A stretch of 64,000 nucleotides of DNA from Candidatus Clostridium eludens (lineage in GTDB: Bacteria > Bacillota > Clostridia > Clostridiales > Clostridiaceae), in NCBI RefSeq assembly GCF_045310515.1, contig NZ_JBJHZX010000011.1:1-64000 (forward strand), given 5' to 3'. The notes below the pieces were generated by a model. It made no database searches. It worked only from the letters and a program-made list of their open reading frames with translations, and had not been told where the DNA came from. Below are positions 6,001-33,740 of the stretch, in pieces. The position numbers were made by a program, and so were the translations under genes. Numbering within the stretch: the stretch's first letter is position 1; each line of letters starts with the position of its first letter.

Positions 6001-6864
6001 ATGGAAGATGGTACAAGTATTTTTTCCGGGTTAGAAGACTTAGGATTTGTGGATATAGACAGTATTGAAGTATATAAAAAATATGAAGAAAAAAAGACAG
6101 TGAAAGAAGAACCAAAAATAACAGAAGATATGCTTTTGTATGATAAAGAAGTGACTTGTCCAGTATGTGAACACAAGTTTTTAGTTCGTACAGTGAAAAC
6201 AACTGGTTATAGAATGAAAAAGAAGGAAAGTGATCTTTATATAAAATATGACATTATAAATCCGTACTTTTATGATGTTTGGGTATGCAATATATGTGGA
6301 TACGCTTCTATGAAGACTGATTTTCATAAGTTAAGGGAATTTGAGATAGAAATCATACAGAAAAATATTACTCCAAAATGGCGAGGAAGAAAATATCCAG
6401 CGATATACGATATTAATATAGCAATAGAGAGATATAAGCTATCGTTACTTAATTATACAATCATTGGCTCGAAATCCAGTAAAAAGGCTATGAATTGTTT
6501 GAAAATTTCATGGTTATACAGAGAACTTGGAGACATAAACAACGAGGAACTATTCAGAAAACAAGCTCTTATAGGCCTTAAAGATGCTTATTTAAATGAG
6601 CAACTTCCTGTATATGGTATGGATAATTTCACAATCTTGTATTTAATAGGTGAATTAAATAGACGTTCAGGTAATTATGATGAAGCGTTAAGGTATCTAG
6701 GGGAGGTAATAGCTTCCAGAAGCGCACATAGGAAGATAAAAAATTTGGCAATAGACCAAAGAGATTTAATAAAAGAAACATTAGAGAATAATGAAGAGAA
6801 GAATAATGAAGATGTTGTGGAAAGTAAGAAAAAAGCAGGCTTATTTTCAAGATTTTTTAAATAA
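6001..6864 (+). CDS. DUF2225-family protein (zinc-ribbon N-terminus, TPR-like C-terminus)
   Basis: Two CxxC pairs (CPVCEH, CNICGY) and conserved Clostridial DUF2225 architecture. RBS AAAGGA. Confidence 0.6.
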   Translation: MEDGTSIFSGLEDLGFVDIDSIEVYKKYEEKKTVKEEPKITEDMLLYDKEVTCPVCEHKFLVRTVKTTGYRMKKKESDLYIKYDIINPYFYDVWVCNICGYASMKTDFHKLREFEIEIIQKNITPKWRGRKYPAIYDINIAIERYKLSLLNYTIIGSKSSKKAMNCLKISWLYRELGDINNEELFRKQALIGLKDAYLNEQLPVYGMDNFTILYLIGELNRRSGNYDEALRYLGEVIASRSAHRKIKNLAIDQRDLIKETLENNEEKNNEDVVESKKKAGLFSRFFK

Positions 6865-6954
6865 GGTTGAATTTAATAATTTAATTATAGGACTACATTA
6901 TTTATTTATAGAAAAATTATTTAAAAAACTTTTCATTGGAAAGGATAATATTTA

Positions 6955-10324: not shown

Positions 10325-10440
10325 TTTCTTATCAAGAGTAGTGGAGGGACTGGCCCTATGATGCTCGGCAACCTGAGTATGTTTATCAATATATTCAATG
10401 GTGCTAATTCCAGCAGATGAAATCTGAAAGATGAGAGACA
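10325..10440 (+). ncRNA. SAM-I (S-box) riboswitch aptamer
   Basis: TCTTATCAAGAGTAGTGGAGGGACTGGCCCTATGATGCTCGGCAACC...GGTGCTAATTCCAGCAGATGAAATCTGAAAGATGAGAGA matches the S-box consensus nearly position for position. Putative promoter TTGTCC-17-TAAAAT at 10285-10313. Confidence 0.9.
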
Positions 10441-10748: not shown

Positions 10749-10932
10749 AATTATCAAAGGCATATATACAAATTGTCTTATAAATATTCATAGTCAAATT
10801 GTGCTAGGAGGTGTTCTAATGTTAGAAGAAGATTTGATACAATAATAGGTTGTTAAGTTGAACTGCTTAAAAAAGATAATCTGTGTCAGAAAAATTATTG
10901 AATAAATAAAAGTGAAAAATAGGGGGAAAGAA

Positions 10933-12009
10933 ATGAAAAAAAATAAAAAGTTTAAATTATCTTACTATGTAATTATGTTAATTTTATCCACAGCATTTTT
11001 TGCGGCGTGCTCAAATACAACAACATCTAATCAAAAGTCTGATGCTGTAAATGAACAAAATGCTTCAAATAATAAGAATTCTGCTAGTTCTGGTGTTACT
11101 GATCCTATTGATGGGAAGTCTGTTCCTTCACTTAAAGGTAAGAAGATAGGAGTTGCCATAGAAGGAATAAGCAATAATTGGGAGAGGCAAGCTTATCAAG
11201 CTCAAATTGATCGAATAAAACAATTGGGGGGAACAGCCATTGAAGTTAATGGCGAGCGTAATACTCAAAAACATATTTCTGATATTGAGAATTTGATTAC
11301 TCAAAAGCCTGATGCAATCATTAAGCAACTTGGAGATGCAAAAGTATATGCACCTGTACTTAAGAAGGTACGTGCTGCAAATATTCCGCTTTTTACTGTT
11401 GATCATCCTAGTGAAGATAGTATTACTAATGCTTCATCAGATAATTATTTTATTGGTGAAGCATTAGCACGTAAAATGTTTGAAGATATAGGTGGAGAAG
11501 GTAAAATTGCAGTTTTTAATGGATTTTATGGAGAGAGAACTTTAGCTATTCGTTATGATGAAATGAAATATGTGGCTAAGGATTATCCTAAAATTCAGTT
11601 TATCCAACCTGAGCTGCAGGATATTATTGATGGTACTATAGAAGATTCAAAAAAGAAGGTTCAAGATTTGTTAATAAAGTATCCTAATAAGGGAGATTTA
11701 AAAGCTATCTGGGCAGGGTGGGATATTCCTGCAATTGGCGCTTCTCAGGCTTTAGAGGCAGCTGGGAGAACTGATATTAAAGTTTATGCGGTTGATGGAG
11801 ATCCTAGTGCACTGAAAGTACTTGCGGATAAAAATTCTCCTTTTGCTGCAGATATGGCCCAACAGCCTTATAAAATTGGTCAGGCTGCAGTGGATTCTGC
11901 TGCACGATATTTAAATGGTGAAACAGTACCAAGGTCAATTTACGTAGATCCATTACTTGTTACGAAGGATAATGTACAAGATGCAGAAAAGATTTTATTT
12001 AAAAAGTAA
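10933..12009 (+). CDS. ABC transporter substrate-binding lipoprotein (periplasmic-binding-protein type 1, RbsB/LsrB-like, CUT2 family)
   Basis: Signal peptide with lipobox (AFFAAC). Type-1 PBP fold. ATG at 10933 is preceded by AGGGGG, whereas the ORF track starts at an upstream GTG. Confidence 0.8.
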   Translation: MKKNKKFKLSYYVIMLILSTAFFAACSNTTTSNQKSDAVNEQNASNNKNSASSGVTDPIDGKSVPSLKGKKIGVAIEGISNNWERQAYQAQIDRIKQLGGTAIEVNGERNTQKHISDIENLITQKPDAIIKQLGDAKVYAPVLKKVRAANIPLFTVDHPSEDSITNASSDNYFIGEALARKMFEDIGGEGKIAVFNGFYGERTLAIRYDEMKYVAKDYPKIQFIQPELQDIIDGTIEDSKKKVQDLLIKYPNKGDLKAIWAGWDIPAIGASQALEAAGRTDIKVYAVDGDPSALKVLADKNSPFAADMAQQPYKIGQAAVDSAARYLNGETVPRSIYVDPLLVTKDNVQDAEKILFKK

Positions 12010-16337: not shown

Positions 16338-17480
16338 TTAGTTACCTGTATTTTCGGTGGTTCCACCTGTTGATGTATTTGTATTTCCAGTGGTTCCATT
16401 TGTTGATGTGTTCGTGTCTGTATTTTTAGTGGTTCCATCTGTGGATGTATTTTCATCTGCATTCTTAGTTGTTTCGTCTGTAGATGTATTTTTATCTGTA
16501 TTATCAGTGGTTCCATCTGTGGATGTCTTTGTATCTGTATTTTGGGTGTTTCCGTCTGTAGATGTTTTTGTATCTGTATTTTTGGTAGTTCCATCTGTAG
16601 ATGTATTTGTATTTTTGGTATTTTCATCTGTGGATGTCTTTGCATTCCCATTTTTAGTTGTTCTACCTGTAGATGTATTTTTACCTGATGAACCCGTTGC
16701 ATCAGTGGATTGTTCTTGAACAGTGGTTTTTATATCGGGAGTTTGTGTATTAGTAGGTATTCTTTTAAAATAAGATTTTACTAAAACACCGGCAATCATA
16801 ACTAAAATGATTGATACAATTGTTATTATTGCCTTTTTACTCTTACTAGGTCTCTTATTTCTATTGGGTACTTTTCTATTTCTTTTATTTATTGTTTTTT
16901 CAGTCCTTGATACTTTATCCATAACTATTGTAAAGTCATCTTTTTTATTAGGAACCATTGTCTTAGTTTTTTTCGTTCTGTTTAAGATTATTTCATTTAT
17001 ATTTTTAGGTATATTAAACAATAAGGCTAGTATCCCATTTTGTTCTACAGAGTCTATCTCCTTAAAATTTTCAGGTGATCTAATTGTAATAACAGGCTTA
17101 TTATACACTCCATGTTGATTTTCTACATATAATGTAACTGAAAATTTATCACCCTTACCTAAAAAAGGTATATAGATATCCAAAATGCTATCTTTTATTG
17201 AAGAATCAAATTTTAAACCTTTTGTTATTTTGGCATCTGTAATCCTTAAGTTATTTTGTGGACTTTGTATATTTAGAGTTAGTTCATGAATTATTTTGTT
17301 TGATATATTGCTAACAGTAATAATGTATGCACGAATCTTTTTACTGTTTATTTCCATAGGTATAGCATTGCCTATGTTACATAGTATTCTGGGTGCTAAA
17401 TTTTTATAATAATCTAACAATAAACCAGATATAAATGATATTATTATAGTTATAATTGCAGTTTTAATAATGCTTATCAT
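16338..17480 (-). CDS. membrane-anchored hypothetical protein with a C-terminal Thr/Asn/Asp-rich 13-aa tandem repeat array
   Basis: Two TM helices. Repeats of the TSTDGTTKNTDTK type are encoded by a 39-bp tandem repeat at about 16350-16700. Start is probably the internal ATG, preceded by AAGGAAG. Confidence 0.55.
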   Translation of the reverse strand: MISIIKTAIITIIISFISGLLLDYYKNLAPRILCNIGNAIPMEINSKKIRAYIITVSNISNKIIHELTLNIQSPQNNLRITDAKITKGLKFDSSIKDSILDIYIPFLGKGDKFSVTLYVENQHGVYNKPVITIRSPENFKEIDSVEQNGILALLFNIPKNINEIILNRTKKTKTMVPNKKDDFTIVMDKVSRTEKTINKRNRKVPNRNKRPSKSKKAIITIVSIILVMIAGVLVKSYFKRIPTNTQTPDIKTTVQEQSTDATGSSGKNTSTGRTTKNGNAKTSTDENTKNTNTSTDGTTKNTDTKTSTDGNTQNTDTKTSTDGTTDNTDKNTSTDETTKNADENTSTDGTTKNTDTNTSTNGTTGNTNTSTGGTTENTGN

Positions 17481-18367
17481 ATTAATTTTCGCTTCCTTAT
17501 TTTTTACCATTATACAACTAAATTATAAAGTAGATAGATATTTGTGTCAAATTTAAAGATTGGTTACTATGAAATGTAATGATTGAATATCTCACTTATA
17601 TTCAAGGAATGCTTCAAAGTATAAAGAAGTGTAATTATGAAAGTTATAGTTTAACTTAATAATAATTTTAAACTTGAAATTAACTTCTAGATTGGTTTCA
17701 GGTTTTATTTTGGTTTGTAAAATATAAAAAGCAAAGGGGCATAAAGATTTACCTTACACCAATATAAATAATTTAATATCTAGTTATAATCCCTTAAATC
17801 ATATTAAATATGATTTTTAAAACCATAACTAAACAGTTCACCACCCATATTAATGATTCGTTCGACCATACAACATACCTACACAGCTATATACAACCCT
17901 CTAGCTGTATATAACCATCTCAGCACCCTGGATGATCTTCGCTGGACCCTATACAATAATTTGGGATCCCATTATAATCAACATAATTAACCATAATGAA
18001 ACCTTTCATCAACATATAAGATCTACCTTAAACCGTATATACAAGATTTTTAACTCTTAATGTAAATCCTACAAAAATTTGTGATTAAACATATTTTTAT
18101 TATCTACTCTACTAAAATTATTAAAAAAACATATACAGTTTAGGGCTAGCTTATATATGCTTTTTAGCATATATAAGCTTTGGCTCAATCCTCATGTCCT
18201 TTACATTATTTAATATGCCCTAGCATAAAAAAATAATTCAAAAATTTTTATGTAATTTAATCCAAATATTTAAAACTTACTATTTAGCAGGAATTTTTTC
18301 TTTTTTAGAGAATTTTAATGTTATATAATTGCAAGTACAATGGCGTTGGTAATCTAGTTTAAAAGGG

Positions 18368-20059: not shown

Positions 20060-20370
20060 CATCAAAGAAAAAATGATGATGGAGACAAGTAAAAAAAATA
20101 TTTCACCAACAGTGAGCTTGGGGATAGTGTGAACCCAGTGGCAGAGTTTTTTTGAATAACACTCCGGAGATGCAAACTGAAATATTTGTAGACTGTACTT
20201 TAAACAAAATGTTTGATACAGGTTCAGTAGATAAAGTAGGGGAGTCGTATTCCATGCGTTATTTGGATACCAGTAGTAGCTGGAAAGAGACCAAATATGG
20301 TAAATTAGGTGGCACCACGGATAAGCGTCAATTCGTCCTATTATTAAGACGAATTGACGCTATTTTTATA
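20060..20370 (+). ncRNA. T-box riboswitch leader of asparagine synthetase
   Basis: T-box-like AAATTAGGTGGCACCACGG at 20302-20320, followed by a perfect terminator gcgtcaattcgtc/gacgaattgacgc plus TATTTTTA. The roughly 330-nt leader is open in the asnB frame, which explains the artificially long ORF-track call. Confidence 0.6.
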
Positions 20371-27730: not shown

Positions 27731-29893
27731 ATGTCATCAAATTTATTAATTCACTTTGCATTTATAGGAGGCATAATCGTAGGTATATTAGTTTTGATAG
27801 TAATTATAGTAAAAGTGGTAGGTATTATAATTATACATAGCGATGAAGTAGGCATAGAGGAAAAATGGTGGTCTCTTAAGGGGACACTAGACAAGCAGAT
27901 TATTGCTCTTAATGGAGAGTCTGGGTTTCAGCCGGATTTACTCAGGGCTGGTATTTATTTAAGATCCCCCATAATGTATCACATACACAGAGCACCACTT
28001 ATAACAATACCACAAGGTAAGATTGCCTATGTATTTGCAAGGGATGGTAAATCGCTAGATACAACACAAACATTAGGAAAAGTTATTAAAGAATCAGATA
28101 ACTTTCAAGATGTTAGAGCATTCTTGGCAAATGGGGGACAGAAAGGGCCTCAAAGGGCAATACTTAGAGAAGGTACTTATGCTATAAATTTAGCTCAATT
28201 TATTGTAATTACTGAGGAGCAGGTCTATTCATTAGTAGCAGATACTGAGTATGAACAAATGAAAATTAAGATACAAGCATTAAATGGTTTTACACCTGTA
28301 ATAATTAACGGCAAGAGTGATTTGATAGGAATAGTAACAGTTAATGAAGGACCTTCTTTACCTAATGGAGAAATCATAGCACCGGTTGTAGCTCAGAATA
28401 CTTCAGATGAAAATTATCATAATAATTTTCAAGATATAGAAAAATTTTTAGCGGCAGGTGGTCTTAAGGGGAGACAGTACCAAACTTTATCAGATGGTAC
28501 TTACTTCATAAATAGGTTGTTTGCCACTGTAGAGTTATTACCTAAAACAGTTATTGATGTTACAGAAGTAGGAGTAGTTACTTCTTACTATGGCTCTAAG
28601 GGAGAGGATGTTACTGGTTCTAAATATACACACGGTGAGTTAGTATCTCAAGGTTCTAAGGGTATATGGGAAGTTGCACTACAGCCTGGTAAGTATGCTT
28701 TTAACACCTATGCAGGCAGGATTATAAAAGTACCAACAATAAATATAATATTAAAGTGGATGCAAAACCAGTCTGGTAATCACAAGCTTGATGAGAATTT
28801 AAAAGAAATCAGTTTGATTACTAAGGATGCCTTTGAACCTGTTCTCCCATTAACAGTAGTAATGCACATTGACTATAAAAATGCTTCTAGAGTAATTCAG
28901 CGCTTTGGAGATATTAAAATACTTATAGAACAGTCACTTGACCCTATGATTGCAGGATACTTTAAAAATATAGGACAGCAAATGACCTTAATCGAACTTA
29001 TTCAGAACAGAAATGAGATACAGAGTAGGGCTTCCGAAGAAATGAAAGAGAGATTTTCAAGATATGATTTAGAGCTTGAAGAGGTTCTAATAGGAACTCC
29101 AGCAGCTTCTCCTAATGATTCTAGAATAAATACTATTCTACAACAATTAAGAGACAGGCAAGTTGCAAAGGAACAAATCGCAACTTATGATGCACAACAG
29201 AAATCAGCAGACAAGATGAAAGAACTTGAAGAAGCTAAGGCCAAAGCTAATGCACAGGCAGCACTTACCCAATCGGATATAGATATTACCATAGCTGATA
29301 ATAAGGGTAAAGCGGCATTAAAATCAGCAGAGCAAGAAGCGGCTAAGATTAAAGCTTTATCGGAGGCAGATAAGTACAAGAGTAATCAAAAAGCGGAAGC
29401 AGATAGATATGCAAGAGAGCAAGATGCAGAAGCTACAGCTAAAACAGTTGAATTGACAGCTAAGGCTAATGCAGAGAAGGTAAAGGTAACAGCAGACGCT
29501 GATTCATATGAATTAGAAACAATAGGTAATGCTAAGGCTCTCAATATTAAAGCCGTAGCTTCAGCAGAAGCAGACAAAGAAACTAAGGTTGGTACAGCAA
29601 AAGGTATAGCAGCTAAGGCATTAGTTGATGCATATGGGGGACCTGAATTACAGGTAGTGCAGTCAGTATTAACACAATTTGCAGAAGCTTTAAAAGTGTC
29701 TAAGTCACCTTTAGTGCCTAATACTATAATAACTGCTGCTGGAGATGGCAAAACTCCCAATGCCATGGAAGGTATTTTAAGCTTGGTATTAGCAAATATA
29801 GCTAATGGCAAAGGGTTATTAGTACCAAAAGATATAGAAAGTTCAAAAATTACAGAAAAACAAGATGAAGCAGATAAAACAGATAATCAATAA
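27731..29893 (+). CDS. flotillin-like SPFH/band-7 protein (FloT/YqiK family) with a long Ala/Lys/Glu coiled-coil
   Basis: N-terminal TM, then an SPFH domain, an EA-rich coiled-coil, and a C-terminal flotillin-like segment (GGPELQVVQSVLTQFAEAL..). 720 aa. Confidence 0.7.
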   Translation: MSSNLLIHFAFIGGIIVGILVLIVIIVKVVGIIIIHSDEVGIEEKWWSLKGTLDKQIIALNGESGFQPDLLRAGIYLRSPIMYHIHRAPLITIPQGKIAYVFARDGKSLDTTQTLGKVIKESDNFQDVRAFLANGGQKGPQRAILREGTYAINLAQFIVITEEQVYSLVADTEYEQMKIKIQALNGFTPVIINGKSDLIGIVTVNEGPSLPNGEIIAPVVAQNTSDENYHNNFQDIEKFLAAGGLKGRQYQTLSDGTYFINRLFATVELLPKTVIDVTEVGVVTSYYGSKGEDVTGSKYTHGELVSQGSKGIWEVALQPGKYAFNTYAGRIIKVPTINIILKWMQNQSGNHKLDENLKEISLITKDAFEPVLPLTVVMHIDYKNASRVIQRFGDIKILIEQSLDPMIAGYFKNIGQQMTLIELIQNRNEIQSRASEEMKERFSRYDLELEEVLIGTPAASPNDSRINTILQQLRDRQVAKEQIATYDAQQKSADKMKELEEAKAKANAQAALTQSDIDITIADNKGKAALKSAEQEAAKIKALSEADKYKSNQKAEADRYAREQDAEATAKTVELTAKANAEKVKVTADADSYELETIGNAKALNIKAVASAEADKETKVGTAKGIAAKALVDAYGGPELQVVQSVLTQFAEALKVSKSPLVPNTIITAAGDGKTPNAMEGILSLVLANIANGKGLLVPKDIESSKITEKQDEADKTDNQ

Positions 29894-29989: not shown

Positions 29990-30050
29990 AAAAAACTGTA
30001 CTGTGCCTCAGGACGGTTATATGTATTGTGGGTTTAAGTGGTGGTGCGGG
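29990..30050 (+). repeat. copy 1 of a 60-nt hairpin-containing repeat (AAAAAACYGTACTG..CAG.ACGGTTRTATGTATKGTGGGTTYTAGTGGTGG.GCG)
   Basis: Aligns with 36753-36812. Both copies sit in convergent 3'-3' gaps. Confidence 0.55.
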
Positions 30051-30141
30051 AGGTGGTATTTGGCATTTATAACCCACTACTTTTACTCAATATCTGCTAT
30101 GTAATATTTATATTTTGACATTCTAAAAATGAATAATAGAT

Positions 30142-31197
30142 CTAGAAATTATAATTATCTTCCAATAAATTATTAAGTTCATTGTTATTAAGCACGCTTA
30201 ATTCTTCTTCAGTTTCTTTGCTATCCGTATCTAAATCAATAATAACACTTCTTTTTTTATTTCTTGATAATTTTCTTTTATTTTTATCCTCTAATGCCAT
30301 TTTTATTAAATTTATTGATTCTGTGGGAGTTTCACATCCTCCAAGGACTACTATATTATTTTTCTTATTATATGTTATATATGTACTTCTATAAACTTCA
30401 AATAATTTAGTTACTTCATATGGATCATACCCATCAATTTTTAAATTAATTGCCAAATAATCGCAATCATATACATCTTGTTGAACAAACACACTATTTT
30501 TTATTGATAAATCAATAGCAGTCTTAACATCTTTTAACCCATCATATAGCTTTAAAATAAGTCCTGATCCATCTGCTGTATTTATTCTGAATGAATCTTT
30601 ATTATCGATGCTACCATCAGCATGGATACCTACTATGTTATATGCTAGATCTAAACTTTCAATCACTTCATTATTAATTTCTTTATACGTATTTCTTTTA
30701 TTATTATCTACAAATTTAACGTCATTTATTAAATCCATTATGCTATTTATATCATTCCAACATTCTATTGTATTTTTAAATGCTAACTCATCTTCCTTTA
30801 AACTAGGTAAAATAGCTACTACATTTACTTTAGAATTTGGTAATACTTTTTTTACTATTTGTACAAAGGTTTTTATTGCCCCAGAACCCGTTCCTCCAGC
30901 CATAGTTGTAAGTACTACGACTACTTCTGTTAAAGGATATTTGCTTAATAATGTTCCTATAGCGTTAGCATTATCTTTTATCATTTCTTTAGACTTAGTT
31001 CTATCTCTTCCTGAACCATCTGTTCCTGGATACACATATACATTTTTCGCCATATCTGCATTTTTTAATGGTTTAATATCAAATAAACTGCTATTTATAA
31101 ATAACCCGTTGTATCTTGAATTTCTACTTAATAATCCATCTACAATATTTCCCGCACCTTGACCTAATGAGACTAATAACATTTTGCCTTTTTCCAT
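30142..31197 (-). CDS. tubulin/FtsZ-superfamily GTPase, TubZ-like
   Basis: N-terminal G-box LVSLGQGAGNIV. Tubulin signature TTMAGGTGSGA. A basic then acidic C-terminal tail (KNKRKLSRNKKRS...EEELSVLNNNELNNLLEDNYNF). RBS AAGGGAGGG. Confidence 0.7.
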   Translation of the reverse strand: MEKGKMLLVSLGQGAGNIVDGLLSRNSRYNGLFINSSLFDIKPLKNADMAKNVYVYPGTDGSGRDRTKSKEMIKDNANAIGTLLSKYPLTEVVVVLTTMAGGTGSGAIKTFVQIVKKVLPNSKVNVVAILPSLKEDELAFKNTIECWNDINSIMDLINDVKFVDNNKRNTYKEINNEVIESLDLAYNIVGIHADGSIDNKDSFRINTADGSGLILKLYDGLKDVKTAIDLSIKNSVFVQQDVYDCDYLAINLKIDGYDPYEVTKLFEVYRSTYITYNKKNNIVVLGGCETPTESINLIKMALEDKNKRKLSRNKKRSVIIDLDTDSKETEEELSVLNNNELNNLLEDNYNF

Positions 31198-31336
31198 AAT
31201 TACCCTCCCTTAGTGTATTTTATATATCTATTATCGAAAAAAGTCAGAATAACCTTATATTTTTTAAACTAATAATATTTTTTACTTAAGCTTACCTTCT
31301 ATTTGTTCGAAAAAAGGAGAAGGGGGATTAATTATT

Positions 31337-32173
31337 ATGGATAATAAAGATAAATATATAGATACACAAAAAGTTGATCATAAAATTCAAAATAAAAAAA
31401 GAGGCGAAATATTGTACTACTCTATTAATCAGGTTGCTGATTTGTTGAATGAAAATATTAGTAATATAAAATACTATACAAATATATTTGACGATCTTCT
31501 AAAAATTGAAATAATAGATAAAGAATTGCGTTATACTAATAATGATATTGATAACTTAGAATTTTTAATAAAATTAAAAAATAGAGGAATGTCTCTTAAA
31601 GAAATTCAAGATTATTATAGTAAATTACCTTTAAATGATAATGAAGTCCAGCATCTAGAAAGTAATTTATTATCTGTTGAAGAACTTATTGATTCAATTA
31701 AAGAAGAACAACAAATTCAATTTAACAATTTTAAAATTCAATTAAATAATGATATACAAAATGCCAATTTATTATATATTGAAAATATTACCTCAACAAT
31801 TATTGAGGCTCAAAATAAAAGCCTTAATAAATTCAAACAGGATTTATTTGAGGAAATTAAACAATATCTAAATTCTAAGTTTGATGAAATTAATGAAATT
31901 AACCTTGATTTACATAACCAATTTATTTCTAACATTACAGAATTTATATCTGAAAAAATTGACAGTAAAAATGACGAATTAAAACTTAACTTGCAAAGTG
32001 ATTTTAATGTATTTTCCCAATCATCTTTAACTAATAATGAACGTTTAATAAAGGAAGTTAAGGGTTTTAAAAAAGTTATAGAGAATGCTTATTATATCCA
32101 ATACCAAGTAGAAATGGATAATGCTAATTCAGGATTTTTGAATAAATTACTTCAAATATTTAAATCTAAATAA
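31337..32173 (+). CDS. MerR-type HTH protein with a long coiled-coil and a C-terminal amphipathic helix (TubY-like)
   Basis: N-terminal MerR HTH (YSINQVADLL..LRYTNNDIDNLEFLIKLKNRGMSLKEI). The rest is heptad-rich. Divergent from the TubZ-like gene across a 140-bp gap. Confidence 0.6.
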   Translation: MDNKDKYIDTQKVDHKIQNKKRGEILYYSINQVADLLNENISNIKYYTNIFDDLLKIEIIDKELRYTNNDIDNLEFLIKLKNRGMSLKEIQDYYSKLPLNDNEVQHLESNLLSVEELIDSIKEEQQIQFNNFKIQLNNDIQNANLLYIENITSTIIEAQNKSLNKFKQDLFEEIKQYLNSKFDEINEINLDLHNQFISNITEFISEKIDSKNDELKLNLQSDFNVFSQSSLTNNERLIKEVKGFKKVIENAYYIQYQVEMDNANSGFLNKLLQIFKSK

Positions 32174-32479
32174 AATTTAAAGAGATTAGTTTTATACTCT
32201 TGTTTTAAACTATAAAAAGGGAAAATCTTGGATATTTCTTAGGAGTTATTATGGGTATTAGCGATGAGGCTAGAATATTTAATAGTATTTGAATATAGAA
32301 CAGGATGAAATTGTAAATTATCTCGTGGAGTAAGTAATAACCTGAAATAGAAAATTGATACAACAAATTATATAATACCAGTAACACTCGTATTCTTAGG
32401 CAAATCTAAAAGGTGAGTTAATGGTTGATAACCGCAATGCAAGTCTCTAATATCCCACACCAACAGCTTCATAGACTTA

Positions 32480-32695
32480 AAGATGGTGTATAAAGTCCTG
32501 CCCAGCTTTTAAGAATGGTTCTACTATCAGCAACGGTTCCTATCTCTGAGGCTTTTTTAATTTTTTCTTCTGCCCAATCTATGACAGCACTTGTGATGTT
32601 TTTGAGTGTGCGTTATCTACGACATGATAGGTGACACCTTGTGAATTGCCACCAGTCTGTGCATACCTGGCAACATAAGGAGATAAGTAAAATTT
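32480..32695 (-). pseudogene. frameshifted fragment resembling a cell-wall hydrolase/amidase
   Basis: Reverse-strand pieces YVARYAQTGGNSQGVTYHVVDNAH and TLKNITSAVIDWAEEKIKKASEIGTVADSRTILKSWAGLYTP, with frame breaks and no start codon. Confidence 0.35.
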
Positions 32696-32707
32696 TTAAC
32701 AATAAAA

Positions 32708-32748
32708 AATCCCCGGTTTTATTATAATATGACCGGGGATTTTTATCT
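32708..32748. terminator. bidirectional intrinsic terminator (aaaaatccccggt / accggggattttt)
   Basis: Perfect 13-bp stem flanked by A and T runs. Serves the minus-strand gene ending at 32802. Confidence 0.8.
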
Positions 32749-32801
32749 GTCTACATTGAATCACATGTATCAGGTTATGGTACTTATAAGTTATTTTGGT
32801 C

Positions 32802-33740
32802 TTAAATTTCTTTCATTGCAGAATCAAATGCATTTTGAATAGCTGTTTCCTGGTCTTGAGTAATTGTTCCAGCAGATACCAAACTATCTAAAGCATTTGC
32901 AAATGGGTTGTTTGTTCTGTCCGTTTGTGACTGAGATGACTTCACCGCAGAATCAAATGCACTTTTAATAGCTGTCTCTTGATCCTGTGTGATTGTTCCA
33001 GCAGATACTAAACTATCTAGAACGGATGTGCCAGGGTCTCCAGTTGAGTTCTGTGGCTGGGTGGAGTTCATAGCAGATTTAAATGCATTTTGAATAGCTG
33101 TTTCCTGGTCTTGAGTAATTGTTCCAGCAGATACCAAACTATCTAAAGCATTTGCAAATGGATTATTTGTTTTATCAGTTTGTGCCTGAGGTGACTTCAT
33201 AGCAGAATCAAATGCACTTTTAATAGCTGTCTCTTGATCCTGTGTGATTGTTCCAGCAGATACTAAACTATCTAAAACGGATGTGCCAGGGTCTTCAGTT
33301 GAGTTCTGTGGCTGGGTGGAGTTCATAGCAGATTTAAATGCATTTTGAATAGCTGTCTCTTGGTCTTGAGTAATTGTTCCTGAAGATACTAGACTATCTA
33401 ATGGATTTGTAGGTCTTCTATTGTATACTGCTGATGGTTGGGTTGACTGGTTTCTAGATTGAAAAATACTAGTTATAGTATTTGCTTGATCCTGAGTAAT
33501 TGTTCCTGCTGACACCAAACTATCTAAGGAACTACTGATGCTGTTGGCAATATTTGTTTCTCTCGGCATTAAGTTATTTGCTGTTTGCATCCCACATTGA
33601 CTTAATTCTATTGAATCTTGTCCATATTTTTTATAATCATTTATTTCTGTATAGTTGTCACCATCTGTATTTTCAGTATTGTTTTGAGTATATAAACTAT
33701 ATAAATTACTTGTGCTTCTAGTATCATATATTGTGTTCAT
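32802..33740 (-). CDS. hypothetical protein with six copies of a 42-aa repeat (LDSLVSAGTITQDQETAI..AF.SAM)
   Basis: Alternating A and B repeat types, encoded by long near-identical DNA repeats of about 250 bp. No signal peptide. RBS GAGGAGG. Confidence 0.6.
   Translation of the reverse strand: MNTIYDTRSTSNLYSLYTQNNTENTDGDNYTEINDYKKYGQDSIELSQCGMQTANNLMPRETNIANSISSSLDSLVSAGTITQDQANTITSIFQSRNQSTQPSAVYNRRPTNPLDSLVSSGTITQDQETAIQNAFKSAMNSTQPQNSTEDPGTSVLDSLVSAGTITQDQETAIKSAFDSAMKSPQAQTDKTNNPFANALDSLVSAGTITQDQETAIQNAFKSAMNSTQPQNSTGDPGTSVLDSLVSAGTITQDQETAIKSAFDSAVKSSQSQTDRTNNPFANALDSLVSAGTITQDQETAIQNAFDSAMKEI

What the first reader, a model, noticed from the sequence alone, without database searches (positions are those of the whole stretch)
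30142..32173. Divergent TubZ-like tubulin/FtsZ GTPase and TubY-like MerR-HTH coiled-coil protein, with no TubR
The minus-strand 351-aa protein carries the tubulin/FtsZ G-box (GQGAGN) and signature (AGGTGSG), plus a basic then acidic C-terminal tail of the kind TubZ uses to contact its adaptor. Across a 140-bp gap sits a 278-aa protein with an N-terminal MerR-type HTH, a long heptad-rich region and an amphipathic C-terminal helix. To my recollection this is the architecture described for TubY of the Clostridium botulinum phage c-st TubZRC partition system. The 140-bp gap has no room for a TubR-sized gene, and none lies downstream of tubZ. The pair could be a chromosomal relic of a plasmid-prophage segrosome: decayed lysin-, toxin-antitoxin- and nuclease-like genes lie nearby. 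Alternatively it is a two-component cytomotive module that works without TubR. A flotillin-like scaffold gene lies immediately downstream of tubZ.
Basis: partly seen in the sequence, partly recalled or inferred. Interest (0 to 1): 0.78.

Follow-up and report, generated by a model that had tools for sequence, protein, structure and literature searches.

The report
Chromosomal TubZ–TubY pair without TubR
This Clostridium chromosome carries a well-conserved pair of genes, a tubulin-like filament protein (TubZ) and its membrane- and DNA-binding partner (TubY), derived from a phage/plasmid DNA-partition system that has lost its centromere adaptor TubR; the arrangement is already noted in the literature, and its cellular job is still unknown.

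Summary
Window 30142-31197(-) encodes a full-length homolog of the crystallised phage c-st TubZ (E 8e-46). Window 31337-32173(+) encodes a TubY homolog with a MerR HTH, long helices and a cationic amphipathic tail. The two genes diverge across 139 bp.

No TubR homolog and no tubC-like iteron array was found anywhere in the 64-kb window. The same repeat tool did find arrays upstream of genuine tubR genes.

The "decaying prophage relic" reading is refuted:
- The divergent pair is present in 21 of 21 informative Clostridium genomes.
- TubZ is 73-95% identical across them, with dN/dS of 0.02-0.15. TubY dN/dS is mostly 0.12-0.28.
- The functional residues tested are invariant.
- Neighbours are ordinary chromosomal genes that differ between species. 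The flotillin-like neighbour is not conserved.

The nearest TubR-bearing relative is a metagenomic tubY<->tubR-tubZ cassette whose TubZ is 61% identical. This suggests domestication with loss of tubR.

The architecture is not new. Hayashi 2020 (citing Oliva et al. [quoted passage not shown]

The most likely mechanism is a two-component, membrane-associated cytomotive module that TubY regulates from the shared promoter. The cellular role is unknown. Interest is moderate to low.

The parts
30142..31197 (-). tubZ-like gene (351 aa): a tubulin/FtsZ-superfamily GTPase of the c-st TubZ lineage. It has the G-box GQGAGN, the T4 signature GGTGSG, an invariant Asp at the c-st E200 (catalytic) position, and a basic-then-acidic C-terminal tail with an aromatic tip.
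   Evidence: Pfam PF00091 4.6e-11; TubZ_C_3 at 24.6 bits, just under the cut-off of 27. PDB 3v3t/4xcq E about 1e-45 over the full length. phrog_17961 2e-48. Residue conservation. dN/dS 0.02-0.15.
31337..32173 (+). tubY-like gene (278 aa): N-terminal MerR-type winged HTH (about residues 27-95), a linker, two long helices (114-181 and 190-264), and a C-terminal cationic amphipathic helix (GFLNKLLQIFKSK).
   Evidence: Pfam MerR_1 3.2e-12. BLASTP to c-st TubY 6e-13 and to the pNPD1 TubY-like protein 4e-21. AF2 model. Tail motif, and no conserved Cys or His. dN/dS mostly 0.12-0.28.
31198..31336 (.). 139-bp divergent control region shared by tubZ and tubY. It contains blocks conserved across species but no iteron array and no room for tubR.
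   Evidence: Sequence. Repeat scan compared with positive controls. Cross-species alignment.
31234..31243 (-). Copy 1 of the exact 10-mer CTTTTTTCGA, proximal to tubZ. Candidate TubY operator or promoter element.
   Evidence: Only two copies occur in 64 kb, both in this gap (0.16 expected). It lies in a conserved block, T.CGATAATA. TTTTCGA is enriched in orthologous gaps, 3.7 per kb against 0.13 per kb background.
31307..31316 (-). Copy 2 of CTTTTTTCGA, proximal to tubY and 73 bp from copy 1.
31284..31294 (.). Conserved palindromic block ACTTAAGCTTA, made of overlapping CTTAAG and TAAGCTTA. Candidate operator.
   Evidence: CTTAAG sits at a fixed position (about 46-49 nt from the tubY ATG) in about 14 species of the near subclade.

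Best explanation
The locus is the Clostridium-chromosomal TubZ-TubY module. It is a domesticated remnant of a phage/plasmid type III (TubZ-TubR-tubC plus TubY) partition cassette that has lost the centromere adaptor TubR and the tubC iterons but is kept as a working two-gene unit.

Shown here:
- Both proteins are homologs of c-st TubZ and TubY.
- The residues and motifs needed for GTP binding, GTP hydrolysis and the tail are conserved.
- The pair is conserved as a divergent unit across the genus, under strong purifying selection and in varying chromosomal contexts.
- TubR and tubC are absent.
- The closest TubR-bearing cassette has the same layout plus tubR.

Inferred from what is established for c-st and pBc10987 (PMC5322520, PMC7762940):
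- TubZ polymerises with GTP into dynamic filaments.
- TubY oligomerises through its long helices.
- TubY binds the shared 139-bp promoter region through its MerR HTH and so controls tubZ and/or tubY expression.
- TubY coats or remodels TubZ filaments.
- TubY anchors itself, and possibly the filaments, to the membrane through its C-terminal amphipathic tail.

Without TubR-tubC the cargo is probably not a plasmid-type centromere. The cellular process served is unknown.
For: Identity.

No TubR or tubC. Iteron positive controls upstream of genuine tubR genes.

Conservation: the divergent pair is present in 21 of 21 informative loci and in three further genomes with Pfam-annotated neighbours. TubZ is 73-95% identical and TubY 37-86% identical.

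Selection: dN/dS is 0.02-0.15 for TubZ and mostly 0.12-0.28 for TubY.

Functional residues: the T in GGTGSG and the Asp at the c-st E200 column are invariant in 21 orthologs.

TubY architecture: HTH, long helices and a terminal helix, with no globular ligand domain and no conserved Cys or His. The tail motif GF[LF]xKL[LF] is shared with c-st GFFGKLF.

Control region: conserved blocks, and a 10-mer found only twice in 64 kb, both times in the gap.

Origin: L029 has tubY<->tubR-tubZ, with TubZ 61% identical and TubR matching c-st TubR at E 1e-14. An NJ tree nests the chromosomal clade inside the mobile TubZ family.

Literature: the same conclusion, TubY as a modulator of TubZ filaments probably not involved in DNA segregation, is given in PMC7762940.
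Against: No biochemical or genetic data exist for any chromosomal member.

TubY binding to the gap is inferred only from motif conservation, which partly reflects shared ancestry. The motifs are absent in the distant subclade.

The hydrophobic moment of the tail is high in the window protein (0.65, rank 4 of 268) but only moderate in many orthologs.

The AF2 model is a monomer of modest confidence (pLDDT 69, pTM 0.36), so the oligomeric state is unknown.

C. magnum has a truncated tubZ and no tubY, so the module is dispensable in at least one lineage.

The tree is a distance tree without support values.
Confidence: 0.6

Rival explanations
1. It is a TubR-independent DNA-positioning system. TubY, through its MerR HTH, acts as the centromere-binding adaptor. 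It binds specific chromosomal sites (for example the conserved motifs in the tubY-tubZ gap) and couples that DNA to treadmilling TubZ filaments.
For: The HTH is the most conserved part of TubY; almost all invariant columns lie in residues 22-90. The gap has conserved, locus-specific motifs. In pBc10987 TubY binds specific DNA upstream of tubRZ and also binds DNA non-specifically (PMC7762940). TubY binds TubZ filaments directly (PMC5322520).
Against: There is no multi-copy iteron array like tubC. Two short motifs look more like an operator than a centromere. The chromosomal position of the pair varies between species. The literature argues that clostridial chromosome segregation relies on Soj/Spo0J.
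Confidence: 0.15
2. It is a decaying relic of an integrated plasmid-prophage partition system with no current function.
For: Homology to the phage/plasmid TubZ family. Local GC is slightly low, 0.255 against about 0.30. There is an unidentifiable gene-fragment-like stretch at 32370-32700. C. magnum shows truncation.
Against: dN/dS is 0.02-0.15 for TubZ and mostly 0.12-0.28 for TubY. Reading frames are intact in about 20 species and 160 of 351 TubZ columns are invariant. No integrase, terminase, capsid or Rep gene was seen among the ORFs of at least 110 aa examined from about 12 to 48 kb of the window or in other genomes. The fragment has no Pfam or phage match.
Confidence: 0.03
3. The two genes are functionally unrelated: an ordinary MerR-type stress or drug regulator next to a degenerate FtsZ paralog.
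For: Weak NCBIfam hits to NmlR, MerR, ZntR and CueR through the HTH. PDB hits are only to MerR HTH domains.
Against: The pair co-occurs as divergent neighbours in 21 of 21 loci while all other neighbours change. There is direct homology to c-st TubY beyond the HTH. No effector-binding domain and no conserved Cys or His is present. TubZ is homologous to c-st TubZ over the full length, whereas the FtsZ equivalog model scores 18.5 bits against a cut-off of 295.
Confidence: 0.04
4. It is an exclusion or interference module. The chromosomal TubZ/TubY co-assembles with, or titrates, the TubZRC machinery of incoming c-st-like plasmid-prophages and destabilises them.
For: Mobile cassettes with TubZ up to 61% identical circulate in the same environments. 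TubZ-bearing plasmid-prophages are common in Clostridium.
Against: No PADLOC match. The neighbourhood is not a defence island. Slow, housekeeping-like evolution of TubZ is atypical of conflict genes.
Confidence: 0.05

Closest known systems
Chromosome-encoded TubZ/TubY of 'some Clostridia' (noted by Oliva et al. 2012 PNAS 109:7711 and Hayashi 2020 JBC, PMC7762940)
   Same: The same architecture in the same genus: TubZ plus TubY on the chromosome, no TubR, and a TubY with a putative C-terminal amphipathic helix. Named orthologs include those of C. kluyveri, C. cellulovorans and C. butyricum.
   Different: Nothing substantive. This is the ortholog in Clostridium sp. WILCCON 0269 (100% match). The literature gives only a brief remark. 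The genus-wide synteny, the selection analysis, the nearest TubR-bearing relative and the conserved gap motifs are additions made here.
Type III partition system TubZ-TubR-tubC plus TubY of Clostridium botulinum phage c-st (PDB 3v3t, 4xcq)
   Same: TubZ is homologous over the full length (about 32% identity, E about 1e-45), including the signature motifs, the catalytic acidic residue and the tail organisation. TubY has the same domain plan and tail motif.
   Different: There is no TubR and no 11-bp-period tubC array. tubY is divergent and upstream of tubZ, whereas in c-st it is co-directional and downstream. The location is chromosomal and the pair is inherited with the genus.
Metagenomic tubY<->tubR-tubZ cassette L029 (Logan SRR10492799) and the pNPD1 / pCP_P201 plasmid cassettes
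   Same: The same divergent tubY/tubZ layout. L029 TubZ is 61% identical, and the N-terminal part of its TubY is 44% identical.
   Different: These cassettes keep a 90-97 aa TubR directly upstream of tubZ, have repeat arrays upstream (L029 and pNPD1; none was detected upstream of the pCP_P201 tubR) and mobile-element neighbours such as an Mrr-type endonuclease, FtsK-like and ParB-like genes.
TubY of Bacillus cereus pBc10987 (BcY)
   Same: MerR HTH, coiled-coil and a cationic amphipathic C-terminal tail. It is encoded upstream of tubRZ and binds the tubRZ promoter region.
   Different: Sequence similarity is too low for the BcY C-terminal domain structure to be hit even with a profile. BcY acts together with TubR-tubC.
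FtsZ, CetZ and PhuZ (other prokaryotic and phage tubulin-superfamily members)
   Same: The shared GTPase domain (Pfam PF00091).
   Different: Matches are far weaker: FtsZ TIGR00065 scores 18.5 bits against a cut-off of 295; the tubulin/FtsZ-family chains 3zid and 4b46 (recalled, not checked here, to be CetZ) give E 6e-9 and 8.5e-6; the PhuZ phrog gives 4.6e-15 against 2e-48 for the TubZ-type phrog_17961.

Membership tests
TubZ (c-st-type tubulin/FtsZ-like GTPase) | Tubulin/FtsZ GTPase domain with G-box and the GGTGSG T4 signature | tested here: met
   PF00091 at 43.8 bits against a cut-off of 33. GQGAGN and GGTGSG are invariant in 21 orthologs.
TubZ (c-st-type tubulin/FtsZ-like GTPase) | Full-length homology to a structurally defined TubZ, including the C-terminal domain | tested here: met
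   3v3t E 8.2e-46 over residues 3-342 and 4xcq E 3.1e-45. Pfam TubZ_C_3 scores 24.6 bits, just under the cut-off of 27, and is listed among the precomputed Pfam hits of several orthologs.
TubZ (c-st-type tubulin/FtsZ-like GTPase) | Catalytic acidic residue (c-st E200) and T100 equivalents | tested here: met
   The E200 column is an invariant Asp and the T100 column an invariant Thr.
TubZ (c-st-type tubulin/FtsZ-like GTPase) | Flexible C-terminal tail (basic stretch, then acidic region and tip) used for partner binding | tested here: met
   KRKLSRNKKRSVIID followed by an acidic region and the tip NYNF. The pattern is conserved in the clade and in c-st, pNPD1 and L029. Function is not tested.
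TubZ (c-st-type tubulin/FtsZ-like GTPase) | GTP-dependent polymerisation into dynamic filaments | not testable with these tools
   Requires biochemistry.
Type III partition system (TubZRC) | TubR winged-HTH centromere-binding protein encoded directly upstream of tubZ | tested here: not met
   The gap is 139 bp with no ORF. tblastn with three TubR sequences gives a best E of 0.1, elsewhere in the window. TubR is also absent in orthologous loci, including those with 460-815 bp gaps.
Type III partition system (TubZRC) | tubC centromere: an array of short iterons near tubRZ | tested here: not met
   No array in either flank or anywhere in the window. The same tool finds at least 11 copies with an 11-bp period in c-st, and repeats in L029 and pNPD1.
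Type III partition system (TubZRC) | Carried on a low-copy plasmid or plasmid-prophage | tested here: not met
   Chromosomal housekeeping context here and in other species.
TubY | N-terminal MerR-type HTH | tested here: met
   PF13411 at 46.8 bits against a cut-off of 21.6. AF2 shows a winged HTH at residues 27-95.
TubY | Sequence homology to a characterised TubY | tested here: met
   c-st CST188: 27% identity over 172 aa, E 6e-13. pNPD1 TubY-like protein: E 4e-21.
TubY | Long coiled-coil region without a metal- or ligand-binding site | tested here: met
   Helices at 114-181 and 190-264, no globular domain. No conserved Cys or His; the window protein has no Cys at all. The tetrameric parallel bundle itself was not tested.
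TubY | Conserved cationic amphipathic C-terminal tail (membrane and DNA binding) | tested here: inconclusive
   The motif GF[LF]xKL[LF] is conserved and shared with c-st. Hydrophobic moment is 0.65 and net charge +3 in the window protein, but the moment is only moderate in many orthologs and the lysine cluster is weaker than described for BcY. Membrane binding was not tested.
TubY | Encoded next to tubZ but in a separate transcription unit | tested here: met
   Divergent neighbour in 21 of 21 informative loci.
FtsZ (cell-division equivalog) | Passes the TIGR00065 equivalog model | tested here: not met
   18.5 bits against a cut-off of 295.2.

The most novel reading that the evidence does not exclude
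TubY has taken over the adaptor role of TubR. The pair would then be a minimal two-protein, tubulin-based positioning machine acting on the Clostridium chromosome or on a membrane structure, for example during asymmetric division or sporulation. TubY would link specific DNA and/or membrane to treadmilling TubZ filaments. That would make it the first tubulin-family cytomotive system with a host-cell function in Firmicutes other than FtsZ.
Probability: 0.12. Interest if true: 0.75.

Novelty: already known. Interest (0 to 1): 0.35.

Why it matters
TubZ systems are the model for tubulin-based DNA segregation in bacteria, and they are thought to need three parts: TubZ, TubR and tubC. A TubR-less TubZ-TubY pair that is inherited with the Clostridium genus and evolves as slowly as a housekeeping gene implies a host-beneficial filament function that nobody has characterised.

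It is also an example of a mobile-element cytoskeleton being domesticated. The existence of the pair is already recorded in the literature. The value here is the evidence that it is functional and not a relic, the identification of its nearest TubR-bearing relative, and candidate operator motifs. Together these make the open question (what does it do?) easier to attack experimentally.

Tried and rejected
1. TubR search. tblastn with c-st, pNPD1 and pCP_P201 TubR against the whole window found nothing credible. ORFs of at least 20 aa in the gap and flanks showed nothing. ORFs in the larger gaps of L017, L018, L020 and L021 were only low-complexity artefacts.

2. Iteron and tubC search. The repeat finder on both flanks, TRF on the whole window and an Rfam scan found no array and no RNA element at the locus.

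3. Flotillin as a functional partner. Rejected: it is not syntenic in any of 24 loci plus 3 annotated genomes.

4. Prophage context. Pfam scans of 20 neighbouring ORFs found no mobile-element genes.

5. 'Decayed lysin' at 32370-32700. By eye the frameshifted peptides resemble an amidase, but they have no Pfam or phage match, so this stays unconfirmed.

6. Defence-system membership. No PADLOC hit.

7. Matching TubY to the solved BcY C-terminal domain by profile search. Only MerR HTH structures were hit.

8. My first operator pattern (TTTTTCGANNAATAG) was mis-specified and found nothing. The corrected exact 10-mer gave the result cited.

9. Oliva et al. 2012 (PMC3356609) could not be read because it is not held. 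Its content is cited only through Hayashi 2020.

10. Literature searches for functional data on the chromosomal genes (CAC3459, TubZ with sporulation) returned nothing relevant.
Full report
**1. What is in the sequence**

One is 30142-31197 on the minus strand (351 aa). The other is 31337-32173 on the plus strand (278 aa). A 139-bp gap separates them, and each has a strong ribosome-binding site. The quoted motifs are present: GQGAGN, AGGTGSG and a basic-then-acidic tail.

The window comes from Clostridium sp. WILCCON 0269. Both proteins have 100% identical database entries from that organism on a 118-kb contig.

**2. Identity of the proteins**

The 351-aa protein:
- It passes Pfam Tubulin (PF00091, 43.8 bits against a cut-off of 33).
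- It narrowly misses TubZ_C_3 (24.6 bits against 27).
- It aligns end to end with the crystallised TubZ of C. botulinum phage c-st (3v3t, E 8e-46; 4xcq, E 3e-45; about 32% identity).
- It matches phrog_17961 over its full length at 2e-48. The PhuZ phrog, the tubulin/FtsZ-family chains 3zid and 4b46, and the FtsZ equivalog model are far weaker.

It is therefore a clear member of the c-st TubZ lineage and not a degenerate FtsZ paralog.

The 278-aa protein:
- It passes Pfam MerR_1.
- It is homologous to c-st TubY (CST188, 27% identity over 172 residues, E 6e-13).
- It is more strongly homologous to the divergently encoded HTH protein next to tubRZ on plasmid pNPD1 (E 4e-21). That protein is itself homologous to c-st TubY (E 2e-23).

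An AlphaFold2 model built on 23 orthologs has moderate confidence (pLDDT 69). It shows a winged HTH (residues 27-95), a flexible linker, two very long helices (114-181 and 190-264) and a short terminal helix (267-276). There is no globular effector domain. No Cys or His is conserved, and the window protein has no Cys. The C-terminal motif GF[LF]xKL[LF] is conserved and matches c-st GFFGKLF and pNPD1 SFWGRLF. This is the published TubY plan of HTH, coiled-coil and cationic amphipathic tail (PMC7762940).

**3. No TubR and no tubC**

In c-st the order is tubR-tubZ-tubY on one strand. On pNPD1 and pCP_P201 a 95-97 aa TubR-like ORF directly precedes tubZ.

In the window, tblastn with three TubR sequences finds nothing (best E 0.1, far from the locus). 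No plausible small ORF lies in the gap or beyond the 3' end of tubZ.

Repeat scans of both flanks and TRF over the whole window find no short-period array. As a positive control, the same tool finds at least 11 copies with an 11-bp period upstream of c-st tubR, and repeats upstream of the L029 and pNPD1 tubR genes.

**4. A conserved chromosomal module, not a relic**

The TubZ protein has orthologs of 73-95% identity in many Clostridium species, including C. cellulovorans, C. butyricum, C. saccharoperbutylacetonicum, C. isatidis and C. akagii. TubY orthologs occur in C. kluyveri, C. cellulovorans, C. butyricum and others.

In 24 genome loci fetched from distinct species, the TubY gene is the divergent neighbour of tubZ in all 21 loci with enough upstream sequence. 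None of the window's other neighbours is conserved, apart from IDH in one close relative. That includes the SPFH/flotillin-like gene, DUF2680, Lrp and AzlCD.

In C. cellulovorans, the C. butyricum group and C. isatidis the pair sits among unrelated housekeeping genes at different chromosomal positions, with no phage or plasmid genes. The window's own neighbourhood is ordinary:
- asparagine synthase behind a T-box;
- ABC transporters;
- a histidine kinase;
- IDH;
- GNAT acetyltransferases;
- a permease.

Selection is strong. Pairwise dN/dS is 0.02-0.15 for tubZ and mostly 0.12-0.28 for tubY. Of 351 TubZ columns, 160 are invariant. These include the Thr of GGTGSG (c-st T100) and an Asp at the position of the c-st catalytic E200.

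The 'decaying prophage relic' reading is therefore refuted, and the flotillin adjacency is incidental. Lineage-specific loss does occur: C. magnum has an N-terminally truncated tubZ and no tubY.

**5. Origin**

A metagenomic contig (L029) carries tubY<->tubR-tubZ plus an Mrr-type endonuclease. Its TubZ is 61% identical to the window's. The N-terminal part of its TubY is 44% identical. Its 90-aa ORF is a genuine TubR (E 1e-14 to c-st TubR). This is the window's layout plus tubR.

A second group (L030, 59% identity) is also TubR-less, sits among chromosomal-type neighbours and additionally lacks the acidic TubZ tail.

An exhaustive search finds only 54 clusters (at 50% identity) with E of 1e-30 or better. 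Everything outside these groups is at most 42% identical.

A distance tree places the tight chromosomal clade inside the phage/plasmid TubZ family, with TubR-bearing forms branching just outside it. The tree has no support values, so this is an inference. It is consistent with one domestication event accompanied by loss of tubR and tubC.

**6. The control region**

Alignment of the gap across the nearer species shows conserved blocks:
- TTTTCGA near the tubY side;
- a CTTAAG / TAAGCTTA palindrome;
- a TATAAT-like -10 element;
- T.CGATAATA near the tubZ side.

The exact 10-mer CTTTTTTCGA occurs only twice in the 64-kb window. Both copies are in this gap, 73 bp apart (0.16 expected). TTTTCGA is about 28-fold denser in orthologous gaps than in background sequence, but relatedness inflates this figure. 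The motifs are absent in the distant subclade, which instead has an ATATTATA-N4-TATAATAT inverted repeat.

Almost all invariant TubY residues lie in the HTH. In pBc10987, TubY binds the tubRZ promoter region. Taken together, these motifs are reasonable candidate TubY operators. This is an inference and has not been shown.

**7. Mechanism**

Shown here: homology, intact functional residues, a conserved pairing and the absence of an adaptor and centromere.

Inferred from the c-st and B. cereus systems (PMC5322520, PMC7762940):
- TubZ forms GTP-dependent dynamic filaments.
- TubY oligomers bind the shared promoter.
- TubY coats and remodels TubZ filaments.
- TubY attaches to the membrane through its tail.

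TubY bound all the C-tail-truncated c-st TubZ proteins tested. This fits the tail-less L030 clade still keeping TubY.

What the filaments move or organise in the cell is unknown. The main rival is that TubY itself serves as a DNA adaptor (confidence 0.15). The relic, coincidental-neighbour and exclusion readings are unlikely.

**8. Comparison with what is known, and novelty**

[quoted passage not shown] ' Reference 16 is Oliva et al. 2012.

The finding is thus an ortholog of an already-noted arrangement. It is a member of the TubZ and TubY protein families. It is not a type III partition system, because the TubR, tubC and replicon criteria were tested and not met.

I found no functional study of the chromosomal pair. 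Added here are the genus-wide synteny, the selection analysis, the nearest TubR-bearing relative and the candidate operators.

**9. Verdict**

- Novelty: already known.
- Interest is moderate to low (0.35). The function of a slowly evolving, genus-wide tubulin homolog remains an open and testable question, but its existence would not surprise a specialist.

Noticed in passing
window 32802-33740 (-): A 312-aa protein built from tandem DUF2680-like repeats (LDSLVSAGTITQDQETAI...). TRF reports 126-nt units (4.6 copies) and 255-nt units (2.3 copies, 93% matches). Pfam DUF2680 2.5e-25 with 4 matched stretches. Not conserved next to tubY in other species.
   Followed up: partly
window 32174-32801: A 628-bp stretch downstream of tubY with no credible ORF and no conservation in relatives. 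Positions 32370-32700 read like a frameshifted gene fragment on the minus strand, but it has no Pfam or phage match. A near-perfect 20-nt hairpin at 32705-32744 looks like a bidirectional terminator.
   Followed up: partly
window 27731-29893 (+): A 720-aa SPFH/Band-7 (flotillin-like) protein with an N-terminal transmembrane segment and a long Ala/Lys/Glu-rich C-terminal region. It is convergent with tubZ. The adjacency is specific to this lineage.
   Followed up: yes
window 20067-20343 (+) and 10326-10437 (+): A T-box leader (95.9 bits) upstream of an asparagine synthase gene, and a SAM riboswitch (87.3 bits) lying upstream of the ORF at 10912-12009, whose function was not examined. Both are ordinary chromosomal regulatory RNAs.
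   Followed up: no
window 16338-17510 (-): A 390-aa ORF with no Pfam match that contains about 8 tandem copies of a 39-nt (13-aa) repeat at 16374-16687. Possibly a surface or repeat protein.
   Followed up: no
L016 (Clostridium magnum DSM 2767) 6061-6903: tubZ is N-terminally truncated (280 aa, starting at residue 72 of the window protein). It abuts an unrelated 161-aa ORF that I did not identify, and there is no tubY. This is a lineage-specific loss of the module.
   Followed up: partly
L030 / L031 (ENA metagenome contigs) 53-1866: A sister clade of TubR-less TubZ (322 aa, 59% identical) that ends right after the basic stretch, so it has no acidic tail. It is still paired with a divergent 247-aa TubY-like gene among chromosomal-type neighbours.
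   Followed up: partly
L022, L024, L019, L034 tubY-tubZ gaps: The distant subclade (C. butyricum, C. neonatale and relatives) lacks the TTTTCGA and CTTAAG motifs. It has instead a conserved inverted repeat ATATTATA-N4-TATAATAT overlapping a -10-like element, which may be an alternative TubY operator.
   Followed up: no
window 30001-32000: GC content of the tubZ/tubY bin is 0.255 against about 0.30 for the window. This is compatible with an AT-rich mobile-element origin but is not decisive.
   Followed up: no
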